Source: a virus
Strand: one strand, 5' to 3'
DNA length: 46,631 nt
IMG/VR virus record: IMGVR_UViG_3300045988_051605
Coordinates: 1-46,631 of that record
The first letter of the stretch is position 1; each line of letters opens with the position of its first letter. Under the pieces are notes generated by a model. The model saw only the letters and a list, made by a program, of their open reading frames with translations, was not told where the DNA came from and searched no databases. Positions 14,444 through 36,767 of the stretch are shown here, piece by piece. A program made the translations under genes and the position numbers.

Positions 14444-15776
14444 CAGTACTCCTATTCCTATTGTCGTTTGTACCATCAGACAGGGGCCCGACACCTGTCG
14501 CACGCCCGTCCTTGGTCTCGTCATCACTCTTCGTCGTTGTCGAGTCCTCTTCCTTACCCTCATCGGGAAGTGCAGGCAAATCTTCCAACGGCAAAGACCC
14601 GGCGATCTTCAACAACTGCAGCACACCAGAACGCATCTCAACCTGGTGCAACGCGCCATTCTGATATGCAAGAGTCAAAGACTGAATACGACGATGCGTC
14701 TGATCATTATTGATCGACCCATACTCGATCTGCGCCTTAATGCCGAGAGCCTGCGCAACCTCATTGAGCATGTCGATATGCAACTGACGACGTAGCTCCA
14801 ACGCCTTGAAGGTCGGGTCTTCCAGAGCAGTCTCAGCGCCCTGTCGGCCACCGGCAGAACCATCCGTCAACAGCACCGACAGAGGGATGTCGAGCGCAGC
14901 CGACACCATAGCCGCCAAAGGCGTGCCAGCAGAGAAATCGACACCAGCACCCGCCTTCGTAATCGCCTGAATGTCTTGGCCAGCACCAATCGAGGCAGTG
15001 CCACCAACACCCATACCAGCCATGCGCGCAGTCACGGCCTTCTGCTGATTAGCGTTCACAGACTTCGCCTTGAATGCCAGACGAGACAGTGACTTCTGCA
15101 TCATACGCGCGATTTCCAGATGCTCCTTATACGCCTGAGCGTAATTCAAGGCACCCATCAGATCAGGCTTGCCATAATGCTCCGCCGACAACCTGTTCAC
15201 TGTCACATACACAGCAGTGAGACGACGGTTTACCTTATAGTCCGACGCATTGATTGTCACGCCCGTTCGATCCCACAGCATGTACCACTGAGGGTCACCA
15301 GTAGATGCCGGATTAATGAGCAGTGCAACGACATCCCCAGTGATGTCATCAGTAGCGACACCGCCAAGACGCATCAAAGGAATAGGCATGACAGTCTTAG
15401 CTGCCTTGTCGATCAAATAGATCACGCAACCATCCGTGTTGAACGCCTGCTCATCACGGACCCTCGCCTGCACGCTAAAGCACTGCTTCGCGTTCTCATC
15501 AATCACCTTACGCGCAGGCCTCGTCAAACCTTTGTAGACAACAGGGTCCCCCCACATATAGGCGTTGCGGACGACAAGCCCGCGTTTAACAATCGGATTC
15601 AGCGTGGCCAAGCGACGTGCGCGTGCTGAGTGATCCCGGATCACATCAAGAGTAATCAGGGAATCCGCACCTTCGACAGCAGACAAGGACAACCACCCAA
15701 TGTCCTCCTGTCGAAGCCTTGCAAGGGACTCAGAATAAGCCCCCAAAGCCTCGGTAAGTTTCTGCTCGTACTTCAT
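14436..15776 (-). CDS. Portal protein, 446 aa
   Basis: ORF track; directly downstream of the large terminase gene, with typical size and an acidic C-terminus. Confidence 0.8.
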   Translation of the reverse strand: MKYEQKLTEALGAYSESLARLRQEDIGWLSLSAVEGADSLITLDVIRDHSARARRLATLNPIVKRGLVVRNAYMWGDPVVYKGLTRPARKVIDENAKQCFSVQARVRDEQAFNTDGCVIYLIDKAAKTVMPIPLMRLGGVATDDITGDVVALLINPASTGDPQWYMLWDRTGVTINASDYKVNRRLTAVYVTVNRLSAEHYGKPDLMGALNYAQAYKEHLEIARMMQKSLSRLAFKAKSVNANQQKAVTARMAGMGVGGTASIGAGQDIQAITKAGAGVDFSAGTPLAAMVSAALDIPLSVLLTDGSAGGRQGAETALEDPTFKALELRRQLHIDMLNEVAQALGIKAQIEYGSINNDQTHRRIQSLTLAYQNGALHQVEMRSGVLQLLKIAGSLPLEDLPALPDEGKEEDSTTTKSDDETKDGRATGVGPLSDGTNDNRNRSTDA

Positions 15777-26613: not shown

Positions 26614-26946
26614 TCAGAGAATCCCATAGTGGACGACACGCACGACATCCTGAGTCGAACGCACAGTATCAGCGAACTCCTCGTGGGTGTACATATGACC
26701 GTCGTATCCGACCCACACCAACTCACCGCGGGAACCATTACCAACGACACGCATTGCTTCCCAGGCGCCGACACAGATGACAGTGCCCGGCTCGATGTCG
26801 AGGGAGTCCATCACGATTCGTAGGCACTCAGGAGTGAAGCACTCAAACTGCGTGCTGGTAAGGTCGGATGTGGCGGTGGTGATATTGGCTTCCTCAAGAG
26901 TTTTGACGAATGCCTTGATGAGCGGGTCAAGCTCAGTCGTTGTCAT
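26614..26946 (-). CDS. Hypothetical protein, 110 aa
   Basis: Start MTTTELDP with RBS caaggagaacaaca then ATG at 26946. Confidence 0.7.
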   Translation of the reverse strand: MTTTELDPLIKAFVKTLEEANITTATSDLTSTQFECFTPECLRIVMDSLDIEPGTVICVGAWEAMRVVGNGSRGELVWVGYDGHMYTHEEFADTVRSTQDVVRVVHYGIL

Positions 26947-27241
26947 TGTTGTTCTCCTTGTCTGTGTTGGTGCCCGTGTTGGTGTCCAAAGGGTCAAACA
27001 GGACCACGGGCAGGTTGTTAGGGTCTTTGTGCATCCGGGCCACAAACTGTTCGTGGCTAAGGGAGTGACCAGTGCGGGCTGCAAGCCACTGGTGGGGCCC
27101 CTTTGAGGCATCGACAAGCACGAAGATGCTGTTCCTTAGGCGTACGACAGTGCCGGGGACCATGTTGTATGTGGCGATCCTTTGTGGGTTGTTGTCGGGC
27201 GCCTGGGTTTTGGCGATGAACTCACTGGGGTGTAGGTTCAT
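26933..27241 (-). CDS. Hypothetical protein, 102 aa; first gene of the leftward arm
   Basis: Start MNLHPSEF with RBS cgaaaggagaaaaac then ATG at 27241. Confidence 0.7.
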   Translation of the reverse strand: MNLHPSEFIAKTQAPDNNPQRIATYNMVPGTVVRLRNSIFVLVDASKGPHQWLAARTGHSLSHEQFVARMHKDPNNLPVVLFDPLDTNTGTNTDKENNNDND

Positions 27242-27270
27242 GTTTTTCTCCTTTCGTTGTCGATACTCAT

Positions 27271-27299
27271 ATCTTAGCAGCCAATCATTGAGTATGCAA
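27271..27299 (-). promoter_or_regulatory. Sigma-70-type promoter for the leftward arm (TTGCAT, 17 nt, TAAGAT)
   Basis: Read on the minus strand: -35 at 27299..27294 and -10 at 27276..27271, about 30 nt upstream of the first leftward start. Confidence 0.55.
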
Positions 27300-27316
27300 C
27301 GTGACTTGACCCACAA

Positions 27317-27380
27317 CATAGAAAGGTGGGTATGCCTGGAGAAATATACGGAGGGGTAGCTCCATAGAAAGGTGGGTATG
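27317..27380. repeat. Two perfect 18-nt direct repeats catagaaaggtgggtatg (27317..27334 and 27363..27380)
   Basis: Read directly; 46-bp periodicity, between the two leftward promoter candidates. Confidence 0.9.
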
Positions 27381-27403
27381 ACACCCCACCCCCCACCTCT
27401 CCC

Positions 27404-27432
27404 CATATAGCATTTGATTTTCTATTTGTCAA
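27404..27432 (-). promoter_or_regulatory. Second leftward promoter candidate (TTGACA, 17 nt, TATATG)
   Basis: Minus strand: -35 at 27432..27427 and -10 at 27409..27404. Confidence 0.5.
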
Positions 27433-27604
27433 GTCGAGGGCCCCCCAACCCTCTCCTATGCTGCACTACCACATTTTCCCTGCCTTGTCAAATTATGTGC
27501 CCCCGGTCAAATGTGTAAAGACAATCCTGTCACTCTGACAACCCACACCCCCTCCAACTCGCGTGACGTGCGTCATATGATCCCAGTCACAAGTCAACTC
27601 CGAG

Positions 27605-27685
27605 CTGCGTGCCCCTACTCACGAAGTACCCACTACCTAACTTAACTTAGGCTATCCTAACTGCGTGGCTGCACTCACGAAGCAC
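27605..27685. repeat. Two 25-nt direct repeats ctgcgtgNNNNNactcacgaagNac (27605..27629 and 27661..27685), 21/25 identical
   Basis: Read directly; 56-bp spacing. Confidence 0.8.
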
Positions 27686-27784
27686 AAGTAAAGTTGTGTT
27701 TACCTTTGCATCAACTTGCACGAACTGGCATGATCTATTCGTCAGAGTGTCAGGTGAAAAATTCTCGCGAAAACCCCCTTTTTC

Positions 27785-27955
27785 GCTGATTATTCCTAGA
27801 TTTTTTTATTGAAATACAATCAGCAAATTATTACCTACAGAGAATAGTTATAAAACATAGTTGTAATAAGTATGTTCTATATACTAGATGTTCTAAAATA
27901 GATAATATTCTTAATACTATAGATAATATTATTACTAATAAAGAAAGTTATAAGA
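27785..27955. other. AT-rich island (about 20% G+C) with internal short direct repeats; candidate DNA-unwinding element/origin
   Basis: 33 G/C counted in 27801..27960. Repeats atgttcta x2 and tagataatatt x2. No ORF of 60 aa or more on either strand. Confidence 0.7.
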
Positions 27956-28279
27956 TCCGCGTAAAGAAATCATAGAAAAGTAGTGGGTGGTCAGTTTTCG
28001 ACCATCGCAAAAAACGCTCTAAAACGCCCTCTCACGCCTTTTCAGACCCCTACCTAGGCCATGACACTACCCCCACCCTAAAACTCGCTCAGATCGCCTT
28101 CTAGACCCCTTAACGACGGTCCTAGCATTCAACGTCAGCCTCTAACCCTGTTGTCGCCACGCTGTGCATACGCGTATAGCACATCAGCTTTCAAAATGCA
28201 AAACTGTTCCATATTTTGAGATGTCAAATAAAAAGCTATGGTCAAGTCTAAAGTGTTACCTGTTTCACTCTCAAGATCC

Positions 28280-28308
28280 TTGACTTTTATCCTTTATTCA
28301 TGTAAACT
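28280..28308 (+). promoter_or_regulatory. Rightward promoter candidate (TTGACT, 17 nt, TAAACT) reading into the repeat array
   Basis: -35 at 28280..28285 and -10 at 28303..28308. Confidence 0.5.
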
Positions 28309-28339
28309 GTCAGGGTCACCGCCCTCAGTATGTGTAGAA

Positions 28340-28925
28340 CACACGCACATCAGCAAGGCAGCAAGGCACACATCAGCCTAGCGAGGCACACCAGCAAAGC
28401 AAGGGGGCTGTCGAAGCAAAGCAAGCCAAGGCCACGCACGCCCTTAGCAAGGCGCACGTGTACGCCTAGCAAGAGCCGGCTGTGTCGAAGGCGTCAGCAC
28501 TGGAACTAAGCAACATGAGGCCCGGGGGTGTCGAAGGCATACGCATACGGGCGGCATGCTGATAGCCCGCCTAACACGGGTTAGCGAGGCTTCAGGAACC
28601 AGACCAGCTATGAGCCGGGGCTGCCGAAGCGTGAGCACATAAGGGCACAGGGCTGTCGAACACTGAGGGGCTGCCCTTGTGCCCCTGAGCAAGGTAGGCG
28701 GGGCCATATACCGATAGCTGTCGTATACATCAGCAAGCCTGTGCCCCTGTCGTTATAACTAAGGGCCCTCCCTGTCGTCTGCGTATGCGCAGGGCGCACA
28801 CACCTAAGCCCCTTGCTTGTGCGCCCGTGCCTGTGTTGAAGGCTGTGCTGTGCACCTGTCGAAGCCTTGCCCCTGTCGTATGCCCAGCGAGCCACACCCC
28901 TGTCGTATGGCGCTAGCAAGCCCCG
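28340..28925. repeat. Degenerate repeat array: about 12 copies each of (T/C)AGCAAG(G/C) and C(T/C)GTCG(A/T)A motifs, often paired as AGCAAG, 6-10 nt, CCTGTCG
   Basis: Read directly. No plus-strand ORF of 60 aa or more; the minus-strand ORFs here are Arg/Pro/Cys-rich and look spurious. Confidence 0.75.
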
Positions 28926-28958
28926 CTCAGGATGTGGTGCAGGTCACGCAGACTTGAG

Positions 28959-28988
28959 TTGACACTCTGACAGACGCTGCGCTAAGCT
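28959..28988 (+). promoter_or_regulatory. Early rightward promoter P1 (TTGACA, 18 nt, TAAGCT) with tandem TGACA-ctc-TGACA
   Basis: -35 at 28959..28964 and -10 at 28983..28988. Confidence 0.6.
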
Positions 28989-29046
28989 TAAGTCATCGGC
29001 AAGGGAAACAGCCCAAAGGCGACCGCCGTGAGGCGAGCAAAGCCCC

Positions 29047-29074
29047 TTGACCCGAACGATCTTGACTGTAAACT
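29047..29074 (+). promoter_or_regulatory. Internal promoter-like element (TTGACC, 16 nt, TAAACT)
   Basis: Read directly; same -10 hexamer as the 28280 element. Confidence 0.35.
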
Positions 29075-29188
29075 AAATGACGTGGAAGGCGTGGCTTGCA
29101 CCACGCGGCGGGGTTGGCACCCCTGCCACAACTTCCACAGGCCAGATGCTAGCGCACAGGGTAGCCGCCCACCGCGCTGCATACTTCA

Positions 29189-29244
29189 GAGCCGCGCCCC
29201 CTCACAGAGGCAGGTGAAGGCAGGTTCGATTCCTGCCCGGCTCA
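29189..29244 (+). ncRNA. tRNA-like minihelix E1 (acceptor stem plus canonical T arm, no D or anticodon arm)
   Basis: Acceptor gagccg(c) 29189..29195 pairs with (c)cggctc 29237..29243 (6 bp plus one C-C mismatch). T arm gcagg-ttcgatt-cctgc at 29220..29236. Discriminator A, then CGA. Confidence 0.55.
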
Positions 29245-29273
29245 CGATGTGACACACATCACGAAGCTTCCAG

Positions 29274-29303
29274 TTGACAGAGTGACAGCCTACGCGATAG
29301 GCT
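29274..29303 (+). promoter_or_regulatory. Early rightward promoter P2 (TTGACA, 18 nt, TAGGCT) with tandem TGACA-gag-TGACA
   Basis: -35 at 29274..29279 and -10 at 29298..29303, 40 nt upstream of the first rightward start. Confidence 0.6.
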
Positions 29304-29343
29304 GTAGCCACAAGGTCAAACACCGCACCGAAAGGTAACCCCA

Positions 29344-29565
29344 ATGACACACCTCATCACCCTCACCGACGAGTACACCCGCGTACCCCAGCTCACCCGC
29401 ATCGCCGGCGACTACGACCGCTACAAGGAATGGTTCGCCCTCGTACCCGGCTTCAACGCCTACGACGCAGCCAAGTGGGCACAGCGCGTTTGCCGAGGCC
29501 TCCACGGCGACCGACAGGCACTGAGCCAGCTCGACGCAGCAGGATTCAGCCTCACCATCTACTGA
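29344..29565 (+). CDS. Hypothetical protein, 73 aa; first gene of the rightward arm
   Basis: ORF track; accgaaaggtaacccca then ATG. Confidence 0.65.
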   Translation: MTHLITLTDEYTRVPQLTRIAGDYDRYKEWFALVPGFNAYDAAKWAQRVCRGLHGDRQALSQLDAAGFSLTIY

Positions 29566-29632: not shown

Positions 29633-30106
29633 ATGAACATTGCCGCCCTAGCAGCCATAGCCCTACTCGCCACAGCACCCGTCAATGTCGCCGCAACCGA
29701 AACCAACAACGACGGACTCACAGTCGAATACGTCCCCCTTGACCAGGTGCCCGACTGGTATACGACCAAGCCCTACATGCACACCGGGGTATGCATGATC
29801 ACTGAGCAAGACATCACCTGCGCCACCGACACACAGTGGAAACGCGTCACCCTCCACGACAGGTACACGCGAGCACTGTACAAGTTCATCCAACCCACCC
29901 CTCGAAAGGAAACAACAATGAACCAGCTGGCCACCATCGCCGACGTGTACGACGAAATCCGCAACGCAATAGGCGAGAACGCCGACGACTTCAACATTGA
30001 AGGCATCGCCAAGGCCGCCTACATCTTCAACCCTACCACGAGGGCTTTCGAACCCTCCCCCGAGGTCACGTTCTGGGCAGCTGTCGAAGCCAACCACCAG
30101 AACTAG
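29633..30106 (+). CDS. Secreted hypothetical protein, 157 aa, with an in-frame internal start candidate at 29918
   Basis: Signal-peptide-like MNIAALAAIALLATAPVNVAA. RBS aaaggaaaccaaca then ATG. Confidence 0.65.
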   Translation: MNIAALAAIALLATAPVNVAATETNNDGLTVEYVPLDQVPDWYTTKPYMHTGVCMITEQDITCATDTQWKRVTLHDRYTRALYKFIQPTPRKETTMNQLATIADVYDEIRNAIGENADDFNIEGIAKAAYIFNPTTRAFEPSPEVTFWAAVEANHQN

Positions 30107-35692: not shown

Positions 35693-36363
35693 GCATCAGG
35701 GAAATCTATGGCCCCATCCTTGGCTACGGTTGGGAGAATCTACCTACCGATTATGCCAAGCGAAGATATCTTCCTATCGAAGATGGCATTGTCACCACCC
35801 CGAGTGGGGTTAAGCTTGGAACAGCTTGTCTCACGAATGGAGACCTGCGATTGATCAACACCAGCGGCACAGTATGTGCACAGTGGTGGACAGGCGACAG
35901 CGAGATGGCTGTCGTTGATCCTTTCAACAACCAGGTCTTCACCGTGCCAACACATACTGACCTGAAGTGCAACGCACGCGAGCTGGTGTCGAAGAATATT
36001 GACCTCGACGCCGCAAAGCCCCTTGATCTGTCACTCATGTGGGTGGACCATGACCGAAACGAGGTAGGGTTCTACAGGGATGACTTCCCTGAGAACATCA
36101 GCCCCTACACGGCACGGCTGAGTGGAATGAGTCTGCTTGCGCTTAAGGAGGATGAAGACGGCAACATGGTCGTTCTGAGGACTTCCGCACTCGCAAGGCT
36201 CATGCGTTATGTGAGTGGAAACACTCTTGCGTTCCTTGATTACAAGGGGTCACGAGTCCCGAAGATCATTGACCCTCGTCTGGGAGTCACCGACTTCGGA
36301 TACAAGGTTCTCGGATGGGCAGCTACTATGTCACCGGAGCATAAGGAGATTCTTTCCAAGTGA
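35683..36363 (+). CDS. Hypothetical protein, 226 aa
   Basis: ORF track; 10-nt overlap with the upstream gene. Confidence 0.65.
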   Translation: MAVSIREIYGPILGYGWENLPTDYAKRRYLPIEDGIVTTPSGVKLGTACLTNGDLRLINTSGTVCAQWWTGDSEMAVVDPFNNQVFTVPTHTDLKCNARELVSKNIDLDAAKPLDLSLMWVDHDRNEVGFYRDDFPENISPYTARLSGMSLLALKEDEDGNMVVLRTSALARLMRYVSGNTLAFLDYKGSRVPKIIDPRLGVTDFGYKVLGWAATMSPEHKEILSK

Positions 36364-36767
36364 GAGAGTACATCCAAGCAGCACGGGACGAGGCTAAGAA
36401 GTCCCGCTGCGACCGTGCGCATGTCGGGTGTGTGATCGTTGACCGTGCGACAGGGCGGGTGGTGTCGAAGGGATTCAATGAGACACCTCCCGGCCTTGAG
36501 CCGTGCGACACGGGCGGGCACAGAATGGTGGACGGCCACTGCGTCAACACTGTGCACGCGGAACGGGGTGCCATCCGCAAGATGACTAAGCACGATAGTG
36601 AGTACACGATGTATGTCACCCACTACCCTTGCCGAGGATGCGCGCACCTCATCTCATCCTGCCCTGAAATCGTGGAAGTTGTGTACCTCGGCGACTATAA
36701 CAACTCTAGTGAGGCAACTGCTCTCCTCATGTGCCTGTCGAAGGGGGTCCATCATGTCGAAGGATAA
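36360..36767 (+). CDS. dCMP/cytidine deaminase-family zinc enzyme, 135 aa (GTG start)
   Basis: VHAERGAI (HAE) and YPCRGCAHL (PCxxC) zinc motifs. GTGA overlap with the upstream stop. Confidence 0.85.
   Translation: MREYIQAARDEAKKSRCDRAHVGCVIVDRATGRVVSKGFNETPPGLEPCDTGGHRMVDGHCVNTVHAERGAIRKMTKHDSEYTMYVTHYPCRGCAHLISSCPEIVEVVYLGDYNNSSEATALLMCLSKGVHHVEG

What the first reader, a model, noticed from the sequence alone, without database searches (positions are those of the whole stretch)
28340..28925. About 600-bp degenerate repeat array (AGCAAG and CTGTCGAA motifs) with no coding capacity
Two short motifs recur about a dozen times each between a promoter-like element (28280..28308) and P1.
- (T/C)AGCAAG(G/C) occurs for example near 28352, 28361, 28393, 28446, 28468, 28689, 28732 and 28915.
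- C(T/C)GTCG(A/T)A occurs for example near 28408, 28483, 28529, 28652, 28718, 28747, 28771, 28856, 28872 and 28899.
- They are frequently paired as AGCAAG, 6-10 nt, CCTGTCG(T/A)A.

There is no plus-strand ORF of 60 aa or more. The two minus-strand ORFs are Arg/Pro/Cys-rich and look like GC-frame artefacts. The units are too short and irregular for a CRISPR array.

Together with the adjacent AT-rich island, this resembles iteron clusters of replication origins or centromere-like or regulator-titrating arrays. Alternatively it is transcribed as a repeat-rich ncRNA. The array shares its core (TGTCGAAG) with the genome-wide polar motif reported separately.
Basis: seen in the sequence. Interest (0 to 1): 0.65.

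Follow-up and report, generated by a model that had tools for sequence, protein, structure and literature searches.

The report
Hypervariable TGTCGAA-box array in phage leader
Between two conserved early promoters of a common human-mouth phage lies a 600-base non-coding stretch that changes completely between related phages yet always keeps 5-11 same-direction copies of one short box (TGTCGAA); it is probably a transcribed multi-site binding platform, and its partner is unknown.

Summary
In 28338-28930, AGCAAG occurs 9 times (0.6 expected) and TGTCG 10 times (0.3 expected), all on the + strand, with stop codons in all six frames.

The main unit is a 13-nt box, G-SSSS-TGTCGAA(G/C). AGCAAG is a secondary word.

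In ten related oral-metagenome phages, the flanks of the 2.1-kb divergent intergenic region are 78-89% identical. The array itself does not align at all. Each relative still carries 5-11 boxes, 77 in total, and none of the full 7-mer boxes is reversed.

Box spacing is irregular (13-166 nt) with no helical phasing. There is no Rep, Par, repressor or integrase gene. A sister clade has only one unit or none. Classical iterons, a centromere or a CRISPR array are therefore unlikely.

A promoter with conserved hexamers, a conserved 17-nt spacer length and a near-invariant 26-nt leader points into the array. The same 8-mer is also the commonest sense-strand word of the downstream early genes.

Best reading (about 40%): a fast-evolving transcribed leader that displays many UGUCGAAG boxes to an unknown factor. 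Rivals are a polar DNA site cluster, or a slippage-driven expansion with little function. Transcription and the binding partner are inferred, not shown.

The parts
28280..28308 (+). Promoter P_A: TTGACT (28280-28285), 17-nt spacer, TAAACT (28303-28308), pointing into the array
   Evidence: Found by the consensus scan. In 13 related sequences the -35 hexamer (TTGACT/TTGACA/TTGTCA), the -10 hexamer (TAAACT/TAAAAT) and the 17-nt spacing are kept. The spacer sequence falls into two unrelated classes. The promoter is also present in array-less L189.
28312..28337 (+). Near-invariant initial transcribed leader AGGGTCACCGCCCTCAGTATGTGTAG. It could form a small AGGG/CCCT hairpin. It is followed by a CA-rich stretch.
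   Evidence: Almost identical in 13 relatives. Its first 16 nt recur in clade-2 L189, where no array follows.
28338..28930 (+). Hypervariable non-coding array: about 590 nt, 61% G+C, A>T. It holds 10 boxes plus 2 one-mismatch boxes, all on the + strand.
   Evidence: No BLAST similarity to the equivalent 300-720-nt segment of ten relatives, although both flanks align at 78-89%. Stops in all six frames.
28404..28416 (+). Box 1: GGGGC-TGTCGAAG
28478..28490 (+). Box 2: GGCTG-TGTCGAAG
28524..28536 (+). Box 3: GGGGG-TGTCGAAG
28617..28629 (+). Variant box: GGGGC-TGCCGAAG (one mismatch in the core)
   Evidence: family D4
28649..28661 (+). Box 4: AGGGC-TGTCGAAC. It lies in the loop of a possible hairpin, GGGCACAGGGC (28643-28653) paired with GCCCTTGTGCCC (28671-28682).
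28714..28726 (+). Box 5: ATAGC-TGTCGTAT
28743..28755 (+). Box 6: GCCCC-TGTCGTTA
28768..28780 (+). Box 7: CTCCC-TGTCGTCT
28829..28841 (+). Variant box: GCCTG-TGTTGAAG (one mismatch in the core)
28852..28864 (+). Box 8: GCACC-TGTCGAAG
28869..28881 (+). Box 9: GCCCC-TGTCGTAT
28896..28908 (+). Box 10, the terminal unit: ACCCC-TGTCGTAT, followed by GGCGCTAGCAAGCC. This last unit is recognisable in most relatives.
28352..28920 (+). Secondary word AGCAAG. Copies start at 28352, 28360, 28398, 28420, 28446, 28468, 28688, 28732 and 28915. AGCGAG starts at 28380, 28583 and 28886. The word often lies 0-12 nt before the G/C run of a box or 2-12 nt after a box.
   Evidence: Pooled over ten arrays, 27 copies vs 2.7 expected, but present in only 8 of 10 arrays (0 in L003 and L007).
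28571..28584 (.). Small palindrome CTAAC-ACGG-GTTAG inside the array. It is one of the few patches shared with some relatives.
   Evidence: A 56-nt patch is 93% identical to L006. Related AACTAACCCGRGTTAG palindromes occur in the arrays of L004, L011, L012 and L013.
28959..28988 (+). Promoter-like P1 at the right border: TTGACA (28959-28964), 18-nt spacer, TAAGCT (28983-28988). The conserved sequence resumes at GATGTG, 28931.
   Evidence: Sequence. Nearly 100% conserved in 14 relatives from 28931 onward. The last box lies roughly 55-60 nt upstream of the -35 hexamer. The -10 hexamer matches only 3 of 6 positions, so the scan did not list P1.

Best explanation
The element is a fast-evolving non-coding segment. 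It sits between two conserved tandem rightward promoters (P_A and P1) at the head of the early/replication arm of a virulent-looking actinophage from the human mouth.

Its functional unit is a 13-nt box: G, then a 4-nt G-run or C-run, then TGTCGAA(G/C). The box is present 5-11 times per phage and always points with P_A. The DNA between boxes is unconstrained. It turns over by slippage or unequal crossing-over between boxes and by exchange of short patches.

I propose that P_A transcribes the segment, so that it acts as RNA. It would be a multivalent display of UGUCGAAG boxes on the 5' part of the earliest rightward transcript. This display would bind, load or titrate a box-specific factor, of phage or host origin. 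The same factor would also meet the box on the sense strand of the early genes downstream.

Shown:
- The motif statistics and the strict polarity of the boxes.
- Conservation of the boxes against complete turnover of the spacers.
- The promoter and leader conservation.
- Absence of coding capacity.
- Absence of phasing.
- Absence of the array from a sister clade.

Inferred:
- That the segment is transcribed.
- That the box is read as RNA.
- That a protein binds it.
For: 1. The promoter immediately upstream keeps both hexamers and the 17-nt spacing while the spacer sequence differs between two classes. A near-invariant 26-nt leader follows it.
2. The full box TGTCG(A/T)A occurs 4-10 times on the + strand and 0 times on the - strand in each of ten full intergenic regions.
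3. The logo from 77 boxes conserves only positions -5 to +7. Flanking positions carry almost no information.
4. Pooled over the arrays, TGTCGAA occurs 45 times vs 0.1 expected.
5. Spacing is irregular with no helical period, as expected for independent sites on a flexible strand.
6. The dominant box prefixes GGGGC (30 copies) and GCCCC (36 copies) are reverse complements of each other. Perfect complementary 7-mers within 150 nt are in excess, 95 vs 52 +/- 10, with 0 of 300 shuffles reaching the observed count. This points to single-strand pairing.
7. The array has the A>T skew of the sense strand of the downstream arm.
8. TGTCGAAG is the commonest sense-strand 8-mer of the coding arms, 24 sense vs 8 antisense, and 17 vs 5 in the right arm. 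The same holds in relatives, 78 vs 21.
9. The 8-mer is about 4-fold above synonymous-codon shuffles.
10. Sense copies are more conserved among relatives than random k-mers: 0.974 vs 0.883 +/- 0.029, with 0 of 3000 controls reaching it.
11. Boxes also occur, in sense orientation, inside the neighbouring structured RNA candidate that shows compensatory base changes.
Against: - No expression data exist. Transcription rests on a promoter consensus and its conservation.
- The arrays are not more stable than dinucleotide shuffles (z from -1.9 to +1.65).
- Boxes have no fixed hairpin context: 38 pair upstream, 35 downstream.
- A G-run or a C-run in the same position is odd for recognition of single-stranded RNA by a protein. 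It fits a duplex shape read-out equally well.
- Enrichment over codon shuffles is the same on both strands, about 4-fold.
- In a second set of relatives, antisense copies are also more conserved than controls: 0.946 vs 0.879 +/- 0.038, with 44 of 2000 controls reaching it. A strand-independent DNA-level constraint is therefore not excluded.
- P1 and P2 transcripts would lack the array.
- No RNA-binding protein was identified. Two of the three proteins that track the array were modelled, and the models give no significant fold match.
- A sister clade does without the array.
Confidence: 0.4

Rival explanations
1. DNA-level polar site cluster. An asymmetric DNA-binding protein, of phage or host origin, binds TGTCGAAG boxes in duplex DNA. 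A battery of 10 co-oriented sites between P_A and P1 would act as an orientation-dependent roadblock, or as a titration sink for that protein. This would resemble the operator/stoperator system of Cluster A mycobacteriophages.
For: - The motif is short and asymmetric, has about 36 genomic copies, and is biased to the direction of transcription.
- One common form of the box, GGGGCTGTCGAAG, resembles the L5 site GGTGGCTGTCAAG. The L5 consensus is recalled from my own knowledge. The properties of the stoperator system are from PMC9283540 and PMC5721134.
- A G-tract and a C-tract are the same duplex feature in either orientation.
- Enrichment and conservation are seen for both strand orientations in some tests.
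Against: - Outside the intergenic region, 30 of 32 copies lie inside coding sequence rather than in short gaps.
- The G/C prefix is not shared by the dispersed copies.
- Pfam, PHROGs, NCBIfam and PDB sequence searches of the arm-proximal and mid-sized proteins found no immunity repressor, integrase or other recognisable site-specific binder, apart from a 69-aa excisionase-like HTH protein.
- No phasing or cooperative spacing.
Confidence: 0.25
2. Largely non-functional expansion. A short leader unit containing one box, as seen in the sister clade, has been amplified by replication slippage and unequal recombination. The box persists mainly because it is the microhomology at which the duplications occur. 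The array would be a VNTR-like by-product with at most a spacer role between two promoters.
For: - Sister-clade phages have a single unit between the same promoters.
- Arrays contain fresh internal duplications that run from box to box, and microsatellites such as (CACACAAG)n, which break metagenome assemblies.
- Arrays share only short patches of 20-120 nt.
- Length varies from 300 to 720 nt.
Against: - Neutral decay would erase boxes and spacers alike. Yet 77 boxes keep TGTCG plus the flanking positions, while adjacent positions carry under 0.2 bit.
- No full TGTCG(A/T)A box has been inverted. A few bare CGACA 5-mers do occur.
- All 10 fully read array-bearing intergenic regions keep at least 5 boxes.
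- The same 8-mer is over-represented and conserved in coding DNA, where slippage cannot explain it.
Confidence: 0.2
3. Replication origin iterons or a partition centromere next to the AT-rich island.
For: - Direct repeats of one word lie about 380 nt from a conserved 30% G+C island at 27780-27960.
- The region sits at the switch between the divergent arms.
- The phage encodes its own primase, PolA and helicases.
Against: - Spacing is irregular and unphased.
- Only 13 nt are conserved, and the arrangement is not conserved at all among close relatives.
- A promoter lies between the island and the array.
- No initiator or Par genes were found.
- The array is absent from a clade with 82-87% identical SNF2 helicase and about 82-86% identical primase, PolA and RuvC-like proteins.
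- Some relatives carry a different CTTTACCTT array directly beside the AT island. It is spaced at 9-11 bp or about 30 bp and looks far more iteron-like.
Confidence: 0.08
4. Packaging recognition site (pac) made of reiterated small-terminase binding boxes.
For: - Many IMG/VR contigs of relatives begin or end inside this intergenic region.
- Short reiterated words are known at some pac sites (own knowledge: phage P1).
Against: - The contig ends fall at internal repeats, at different positions, and overlap repeat copies. This indicates assembly breaks, not genome termini.
- A 99-kb scaffold is a head-to-tail dimer with an intact region.
- The terminase genes lie about 10 kb away on the other arm.
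- The sister clade lacks the array.
Confidence: 0.04

Closest known systems
Operator/stoperator sites of Cluster A mycobacteriophages (L5 gp71 type) and the related sites of Rhodococcus Cluster CA phages
   Same: A short asymmetric word is present at tens of places in one phage genome, with orientation correlated with the direction of transcription (PMC9283540; PMC5721134). One common form of the box (GGGGCTGTCGAAG) resembles GGTGGCTGTCAAG (own knowledge).
   Different: Stoperators lie in short intergenic gaps and are not clustered. They need a cognate immunity repressor in a temperate phage. Here the dispersed copies lie in coding sequence, ten copies are clustered in one leader, the 5' half of the box is only a G- or C-run, and no repressor or integrase was found.
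Multi-site sponge or decoy RNAs such as CsrB/RsmZ (GGA motifs) and CrcZ (CA motifs) (own knowledge)
   Same: These are non-coding transcripts carrying 5-20 copies of a very short motif at irregular spacing. Motif number is conserved while the sequence between motifs drifts.
   Different: In those RNAs the motifs sit in defined hairpin loops and the partner (CsrA/RsmA, Hfq/Crc) is known. Here no fixed structural context, no partner and no expression data exist. The array also lies inside a promoter cascade rather than forming a stand-alone gene with a terminator.
Iteron, centromere or translocase-loading arrays: P1 incA/incC, R1 parC, P4 ori/crr octamers, and the 8-bp TRS repeats of Streptomyces plasmid clt loci (own knowledge)
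   Same: Clusters of direct repeats of an 8-20-bp word in non-coding DNA near replication or regulatory regions. The clt locus in particular is a loose cluster of an 8-bp word that also occurs dispersed in the genome.
   Different: Iterons and parC repeats are regular and phased and are conserved with their binding-protein gene. No Rep, Par or FtsK-like gene is present here, spacing is 13-166 nt, and the array is missing from a sister clade.
Repeat RNAs of type III toxin-antitoxin systems and their phage mimics (ToxI and pseudo-ToxI) (own knowledge)
   Same: A phage-borne non-coding repeat array whose copy number changes quickly by recombination between repeats.
   Different: ToxI repeats are regular 36-nt tandem units. 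Here only a 13-nt box recurs, with unrelated spacers, and TRF finds no tandem array.

Membership tests
Iteron-type replication origin | Several repeats of one fixed length (about 17-22 bp) at regular, helically phased spacing | tested here: not met
   Only 13 nt are conserved. Spacings range 13-166 nt with a median of 50. The Rayleigh test shows no period between 8 and 13 bp. TRF finds no array.
Iteron-type replication origin | Initiator (Rep) gene adjacent to, or containing, the repeats | tested here: not met
   Flanking genes have no Pfam, PHROG, NCBIfam or PDB match. The primase gene lies 10 kb away.
Iteron-type replication origin | Adjacent AT-rich unwinding element | tested here: inconclusive
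   An island of 30% G+C at 27780-27960 exists and is conserved. It lies about 380 nt upstream, with promoter P_A in between.
Iteron-type replication origin | Conserved in relatives that share the replication genes | tested here: not met
   Clade 2 has 82-87% identical SNF2 helicase and about 82-86% identical primase, PolA and RuvC-like proteins. It has no array.
Partition centromere (parS / parC / sopC) | ParA/ParB or ParM/ParR genes together with regular repeats | tested here: not met
   No Par family hit in any scan. Spacing is irregular.
Cluster A-type operator/stoperator system | Asymmetric 13-bp consensus at more than 20 sites per genome | tested here: inconclusive
   The 8-nt core TGTCGAAG occurs 36 times. 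The 5-nt G/C prefix is seen only in the array copies.
Cluster A-type operator/stoperator system | Site orientation correlates with the direction of transcription | tested here: met
   24 sense vs 8 antisense overall. 17 vs 5 in the right arm but only 7 vs 4 in the left arm.
Cluster A-type operator/stoperator system | Sites lie at promoters and in short intergenic gaps | tested here: not met
   Outside the large intergenic region, 30 of 32 copies lie inside ORFs.
Cluster A-type operator/stoperator system | Cognate immunity repressor in a temperate genome (integrase or parABS) | tested here: not met
   No repressor or integrase in the Pfam, PHROGs or NCBIfam scans. No PDB sequence match for seven candidate proteins, although the PDB holds a Cluster A repressor structure. 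Very distant homology cannot be excluded.
CRISPR array | Repeats of 23-50 nt at regular intervals, with spacers of uniform length | tested here: not met
   The box is 13 nt and spacers range 13-166 nt. No repeat family longer than 31 nt was found.
Multi-site sponge/decoy RNA (CsrB / CrcZ kind) | At least 5 copies of a short motif, with irregular spacing and non-conserved sequence between motifs | tested here: met
Multi-site sponge/decoy RNA (CsrB / CrcZ kind) | Expressed as a non-coding RNA | not testable with these tools
   Only indirect evidence: a conserved promoter and leader pointing into the array.
Multi-site sponge/decoy RNA (CsrB / CrcZ kind) | Motifs presented in a recurrent single-stranded or loop context | tested here: inconclusive
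   The AA of the box is mostly unpaired (pairing probability 0.33) and the prefix mostly paired (0.75-0.8). There is no consistent hairpin side and no excess stability. Short complementary words are in excess.
Multi-site sponge/decoy RNA (CsrB / CrcZ kind) | A known motif-binding partner protein | not testable with these tools
   No candidate was identified. The two modelled array-linked proteins give no significant fold match.
Any curated RNA family (Rfam 15) | Match at or near the gathering score | tested here: not met
   The only hit in the window is tRNA-Leu. Nothing better than E = 0.12 in 27200-29400, and no hit of any strength falls inside the array.

The most novel reading that the evidence does not exclude
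The array is a phage-made multivalent decoy or scaffold RNA. It would be a long early transcript whose only constrained feature is the number of UGUCGAAG boxes. It would soak up or organise a host RNA-binding or defence factor that would otherwise act on the box-bearing early mRNAs. Its rapid turnover would reflect an arms race. That would be the first sponge-type long non-coding RNA described in an actinobacteriophage, and in a very common human oral phage lineage.
Probability: 0.12. Interest if true: 0.8.

Novelty: new variant of a known kind. Interest (0 to 1): 0.55.

Why it matters
The phage lineage is abundant in human oral metagenomes: 484 homologues of one flanking protein and dozens of near-complete 47-53-kb genomes.

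At the head of its early operon it carries a segment that is hypervariable yet strictly constrained in one 13-nt box. This pattern normally marks a multi-site binding platform.

- If the platform acts as RNA, it would add a sponge or loader type of regulator to actinophage biology, where early regulation is largely unknown.
- If it acts as DNA, it would be a clustered, repressor-less relative of stoperators.

Two practical points follow. The array systematically breaks short-read assemblies of these phages. It could also serve as a strain-typing (VNTR-like) marker.

Tried and rejected
- **Nucleotide similarity to known phages.** Megablast and blastn of 27200-29400 against the phage collection found nothing.
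- **Rfam.** Gathering and permissive thresholds gave nothing relevant.
- **Coding reading.** Rejected, because stops occur in all six frames of ten arrays.
- **CRISPR or tandem-repeat reading.** Rejected.
- **Spacers as matches to the phage's own genome** (antisense regulators or spacer-like memory). Only the box itself matches, the best hit being a 16-nt match at 15707.
- **Stable structured RNA.** MFE z-scores scatter around zero.
- **Fixed 'hairpin plus box' module.** Rejected, 38 upstream vs 35 downstream partners.
- **Genome ends inside the array.** Rejected in favour of assembly breaks at internal repeats.
- **Chi-like site.** The polarity follows the transcription arms rather than one direction through the genome, and is weak in the left arm (plus reasoning).
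- **LexA half-sites (TCGAAC).** No inverted partner is present in the sequence.
- **Canonical elemental pause (G-10 Y-1 G+1).** The conserved G is one position out of register (own knowledge; not tested).
- **Host identification through the endolysin in bacterial genomes.** Only choline-binding-repeat hits in Firmicutes MAGs.
- **Literature searches on the motif and on oral actinophages.** Nothing relevant.
- **Partner protein.** Genes 26933-27241(-) and 29633-30106(+) occur in 7 of 7 array-bearing loci and 0 of 8 array-less loci. Gene 29344-29565(+) occurs in 7 of 7 and 2 of 8.
  - The first and third were modelled with AlphaFold. The 157-aa protein was not.
  - The 102-aa protein (pLDDT 62) is a small beta-barrel. 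Its best matches are non-significant (E > 0.1: TnsB, Spt5 KOW, EF-P, PWWP).
  - The 73-aa protein (pLDDT 79) has no significant match.
- **Orientation-specific conservation of dispersed boxes.** Seen with one set of relatives but not robust with another.
Full report
**Context.** The window is a phage genome assembled from a human oral metagenome. Contigs from runs ERR589408/9 are identical to it.
- It has no nucleotide match among 50,697 deposited phages.
- Its primase and terminase are only 27-42% identical to those of Arthrobacter, Streptomyces and Clavibacter phages.
- Genes left of 27241 run on the - strand. They include dUTPase, NrdH, an Ant domain protein, an amidase endolysin, terminase and structural genes.
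- Genes from 29344 to about 44400 run on the + strand. They include an SNF2 helicase, a Cas4-like exonuclease, AAA_24, DUF669, primase, PolA, WhiB and a RuvC-like protein.
- No integrase, repressor or partition gene was found.
- The finding lies inside the 2.1-kb gene-free region between the two arms, 27242-29343.

**Observation.**
- Against 5000 dinucleotide shuffles, AGCAAG (9 vs 0.6), TGTCG (10 vs 0.3) and TGTCGWA (8 vs 0.02) were never reached.
- All copies are on the + strand.
- Tandem Repeats Finder sees no array, so this is a cluster of short words rather than a tandem repeat.

**Anatomy from comparison.** Two protein-anchored scans of IMG/VR gave 30 loci from about 20 related phages.
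- In ten complete intergenic regions, the left part (27244-28350) and the right part (28900-29335) align to the window at 78-89%.
- The segment 28350-28900 gives no alignment. It is replaced by 300-720 nt of unrelated GC-rich sequence.
- Each replacement carries 5-11 TGTCG cores.
- TGTCG(A/T)A occurs 4-10 times on the + strand and never on the - strand in each of the ten regions.
- Aligning 77 copies gives the box G(-5, 83%)-S-S-S-S-T-G-T-C-G-A-A-(G/C). Positions outside it carry under 0.2 bit.
- The 4-nt prefix is usually a run of G or a run of C.
- Pooled over the arrays, TGTCGAA occurs 45 times vs 0.1 expected.
- AGCAAG (27 vs 2.7) is a weaker companion and is missing from two arrays.
- Arrays share only short patches of 20-120 nt.
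- They contain fresh box-to-box duplications and microsatellites, which is why several metagenome contigs stop inside them.
- All six frames have stops in every array.

**Borders.**
- Upstream lies TTGACT-17-TAAACT. In 13 relatives both hexamers and the 17-nt spacing are kept while the spacer sequence falls into two unrelated classes. This is the usual signature of a working sigma-A promoter.
- The next 26 nt (28312-28337) are nearly invariant.
- Downstream, conservation resumes at 28931 and is almost perfect through the promoter-like P1, TTGACA-18-TAAGCT.
- The array therefore exactly fills the space between the start of one rightward transcript and the next rightward promoter.

**Tests of the iteron, centromere and CRISPR readings.**
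- Box spacing ranges 13-166 nt (median 50) with no periodicity between 8 and 13 bp.
- There is no initiator or Par gene.
- The AT-rich island (27780-27960) lies on the other side of promoter P_A.
- A scan with the SNF2 helicase found 55 loci in two clades. Clade 1 has arrays. Clade 2 has an 82-87% identical helicase and about 82-86% identical primase, PolA and RuvC-like proteins, but no array.
- In L171 a single TGTCGCCTACTCA unit lies between the homologous promoters.
- In L189 the P_A promoter and its invariant leader are followed by one box and then the next promoter.
- L189 and L197 instead carry a CTTTACCTT repeat directly beside the AT island, spaced at 9-11 or about 30 bp. That is a much better iteron candidate.
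- These results argue against the origin or centromere reading. They also show that the array is an expansion of a pre-existing leader unit and is dispensable in a sister lineage.

**RNA or DNA?**

Evidence for RNA:
- The promoter and leader point into the array, and the polarity of the full boxes is absolute.
- Spacing is irregular.
- The A>T skew matches that of the sense strand downstream.
- The two commonest prefixes, GGGGC and GCCCC, are reverse complements. Short complementary words within 150 nt are in excess: 7-mers 95 vs 52 +/- 10, with 0 of 300 shuffles reaching it.
- Boxes occur inside the adjacent structured RNA candidate.

Evidence against, or neutral:
- Arrays are not more stable than shuffles.
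- Boxes have no fixed hairpin context.
- A G- or C-tract is equally a duplex-shape feature.

**The dispersed copies.** TGTCGAAG is the commonest sense-strand 8-mer of the coding arms, 24 sense vs 8 antisense. By my count from the positions listed, the split is 17 vs 5 in the right arm and 7 vs 4 in the left.
- The same holds in relatives, 78 vs 21.
- It exceeds synonymous-codon shuffles about 4-fold, but on both strands.
- It occurs in two reading frames.
- With 20 loci around the intergenic region, sense copies are more conserved than random k-mers: TGTCGAA 0.974 vs 0.883 +/- 0.029, with 0 of 3000 controls reaching it. Antisense TGTCGA copies are not: 0.879 vs 0.883.
- With seven loci spanning the right arm, antisense copies are also elevated: 0.946 vs 0.879 +/- 0.038, with 44 of 2000 controls reaching it. 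The strand specificity of that constraint is therefore not secure.
- In clade 2 the intact 8-mer survives at 33 of 99 orthologous sense places against 3 of 32 antisense places.

**Partner search.**
- Genes present in 7 of 7 array-bearing loci and 0 of 8 array-less loci are the two nearest flanking ones, 26933-27241(-) and 29633-30106(+). Gene 29344-29565(+) is present in 7 of 7 and 2 of 8.
- None has a family or PDB sequence match.
- The AlphaFold models of the 102-aa and 73-aa proteins gave no significant fold match. The 157-aa protein was not modelled.
- No Cluster A-type repressor was detected.

**Verdict.** The element is real, non-coding, lineage-specific and under an unusual selection regime. 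One 13-nt oriented box is kept in 5-11 copies while everything else turns over.
- I favour a transcribed multivalent box display acting as RNA (about 0.4).
- Next come a polar DNA site cluster (0.25), a mostly neutral slippage expansion (0.2), an origin or centromere (0.08), and a pac site (0.04).
- It is best filed as a new variant of the known kind 'reiterated short-motif regulatory array'. It fails the membership tests for iterons, centromeres, CRISPR arrays and stoperators. The tests for a sponge RNA cannot be completed without expression and binding data.

Noticed in passing
window 29080-29250 (+): The conserved segment between P1 and P2 looks like a structured RNA of about 170 nt. RNAalifold on 10 relatives predicts 47 pairs, 14 of them with compensatory double changes. 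The 3' part is tRNA-like: an acceptor-like stem GAGCCG/CGGCUC plus a T-arm GGCAGG-UUCGAUU-CCUGCC, which appears as GGUUAGG-UUCAAUU-CCUAACC in L189. ARAGORN and Rfam do not call it. A promoter-like site, TTGACC-16-TAAACT at 29047-29074, precedes it.
   Followed up: partly
window, whole genome (for example 30082, 30222, 31608, 33219, 36463, 36736, 36755, 37068): TGTCGAAG is the most frequent sense-strand 8-mer of the coding arms (24 sense, 8 antisense). It is about 4-fold above synonymous-codon shuffles and more conserved among relatives than random 8-mers. It is denser in the right (early) arm than in the left arm.
   Followed up: partly
window 27527-27542 (-), 27741-27754 (-), 28960-28972 (+), 29275-29287 (+): There are four copies of a TGACA-N3-TGACA element. 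Two overlap the -35 hexamers of P1 and P2 on the + strand. Two lie inverted in the left half of the intergenic region. The element looks like an operator for an unknown regulator.
   Followed up: no
window 27780-27960; L189 3380-3600; L197 2112-2303: The AT-rich island (30% G+C) holds a 21-bp tandem pair, ATAGATAATATT..., and is 88% conserved among relatives. In some clade-2 relatives it is directly followed by 6-10 or more copies of CTTTACCTT, spaced at 9-11 or about 30 bp. This is a better candidate for origin iterons than the array under study.
   Followed up: partly
window 27317-27334 and 27363-27380: An exact 18-nt direct repeat, CATAGAAAGGTGGGTATG, lies just upstream of the first leftward gene. 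Related 'aaggggtatg' repeats occur at the same place in clade-2 phages (L189 2700-2800).
   Followed up: no
L001/L027 (IMGVR_UViG_3300045988_036333), joined intergenic region, positions 185-300: The left half of one relative's intergenic region carries tandem 17-nt repeats, CTCACAACGACAGTGCC. On the - strand these read as TGTCGTT boxes, so they point with leftward transcription. The window has no such leftward array. Its 27598-27680 is a second variable spot, replaced by about 370-440 nt in L002, L003, L004 and L006.
   Followed up: partly
L008, L009, L014, L020, L021, L022 (ends of IMG/VR contigs): Short-read assemblies of this phage group tend to break inside the array, at internal duplications and at microsatellites such as (CACACAAG)n. 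Several 'linear' viral contigs therefore start and end in this region. A 99-kb ENA scaffold is a head-to-tail dimer of a 49.4-kb genome.
   Followed up: yes
window 36360-36767 (+): This is a dCMP deaminase gene (PHROG 174, E = 7.5e-31) with a GTG start. Its last codons overlap the ATG (36754) of the next gene. Two TGTCGAAG copies lie at that junction, and the first supplies the GAAGGGGG ribosome-binding site of the next gene.
   Followed up: partly
L171 4090-4120; L189 4455-4475; starts of most arrays: (CA)n microsatellites recur in rightward 5' untranslated regions and at the promoter-proximal end of the arrays in this phage group.
   Followed up: no
L002, L004, L007, L011, L012, L013, L020, L021, about 20 nt upstream of the -35 hexamer of P_A: Relatives with the second promoter class carry one more box just upstream of P_A. 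In the clearest cases (L002, L004, L021) the box sits in the loop of a G5-6/C5-6 hairpin followed by TTTT, as in GGGGGG-TGTCGAAGAATACTTAA-CCCCCC-TTTTGG. That arrangement is terminator-like. The window lacks it.
   Followed up: no
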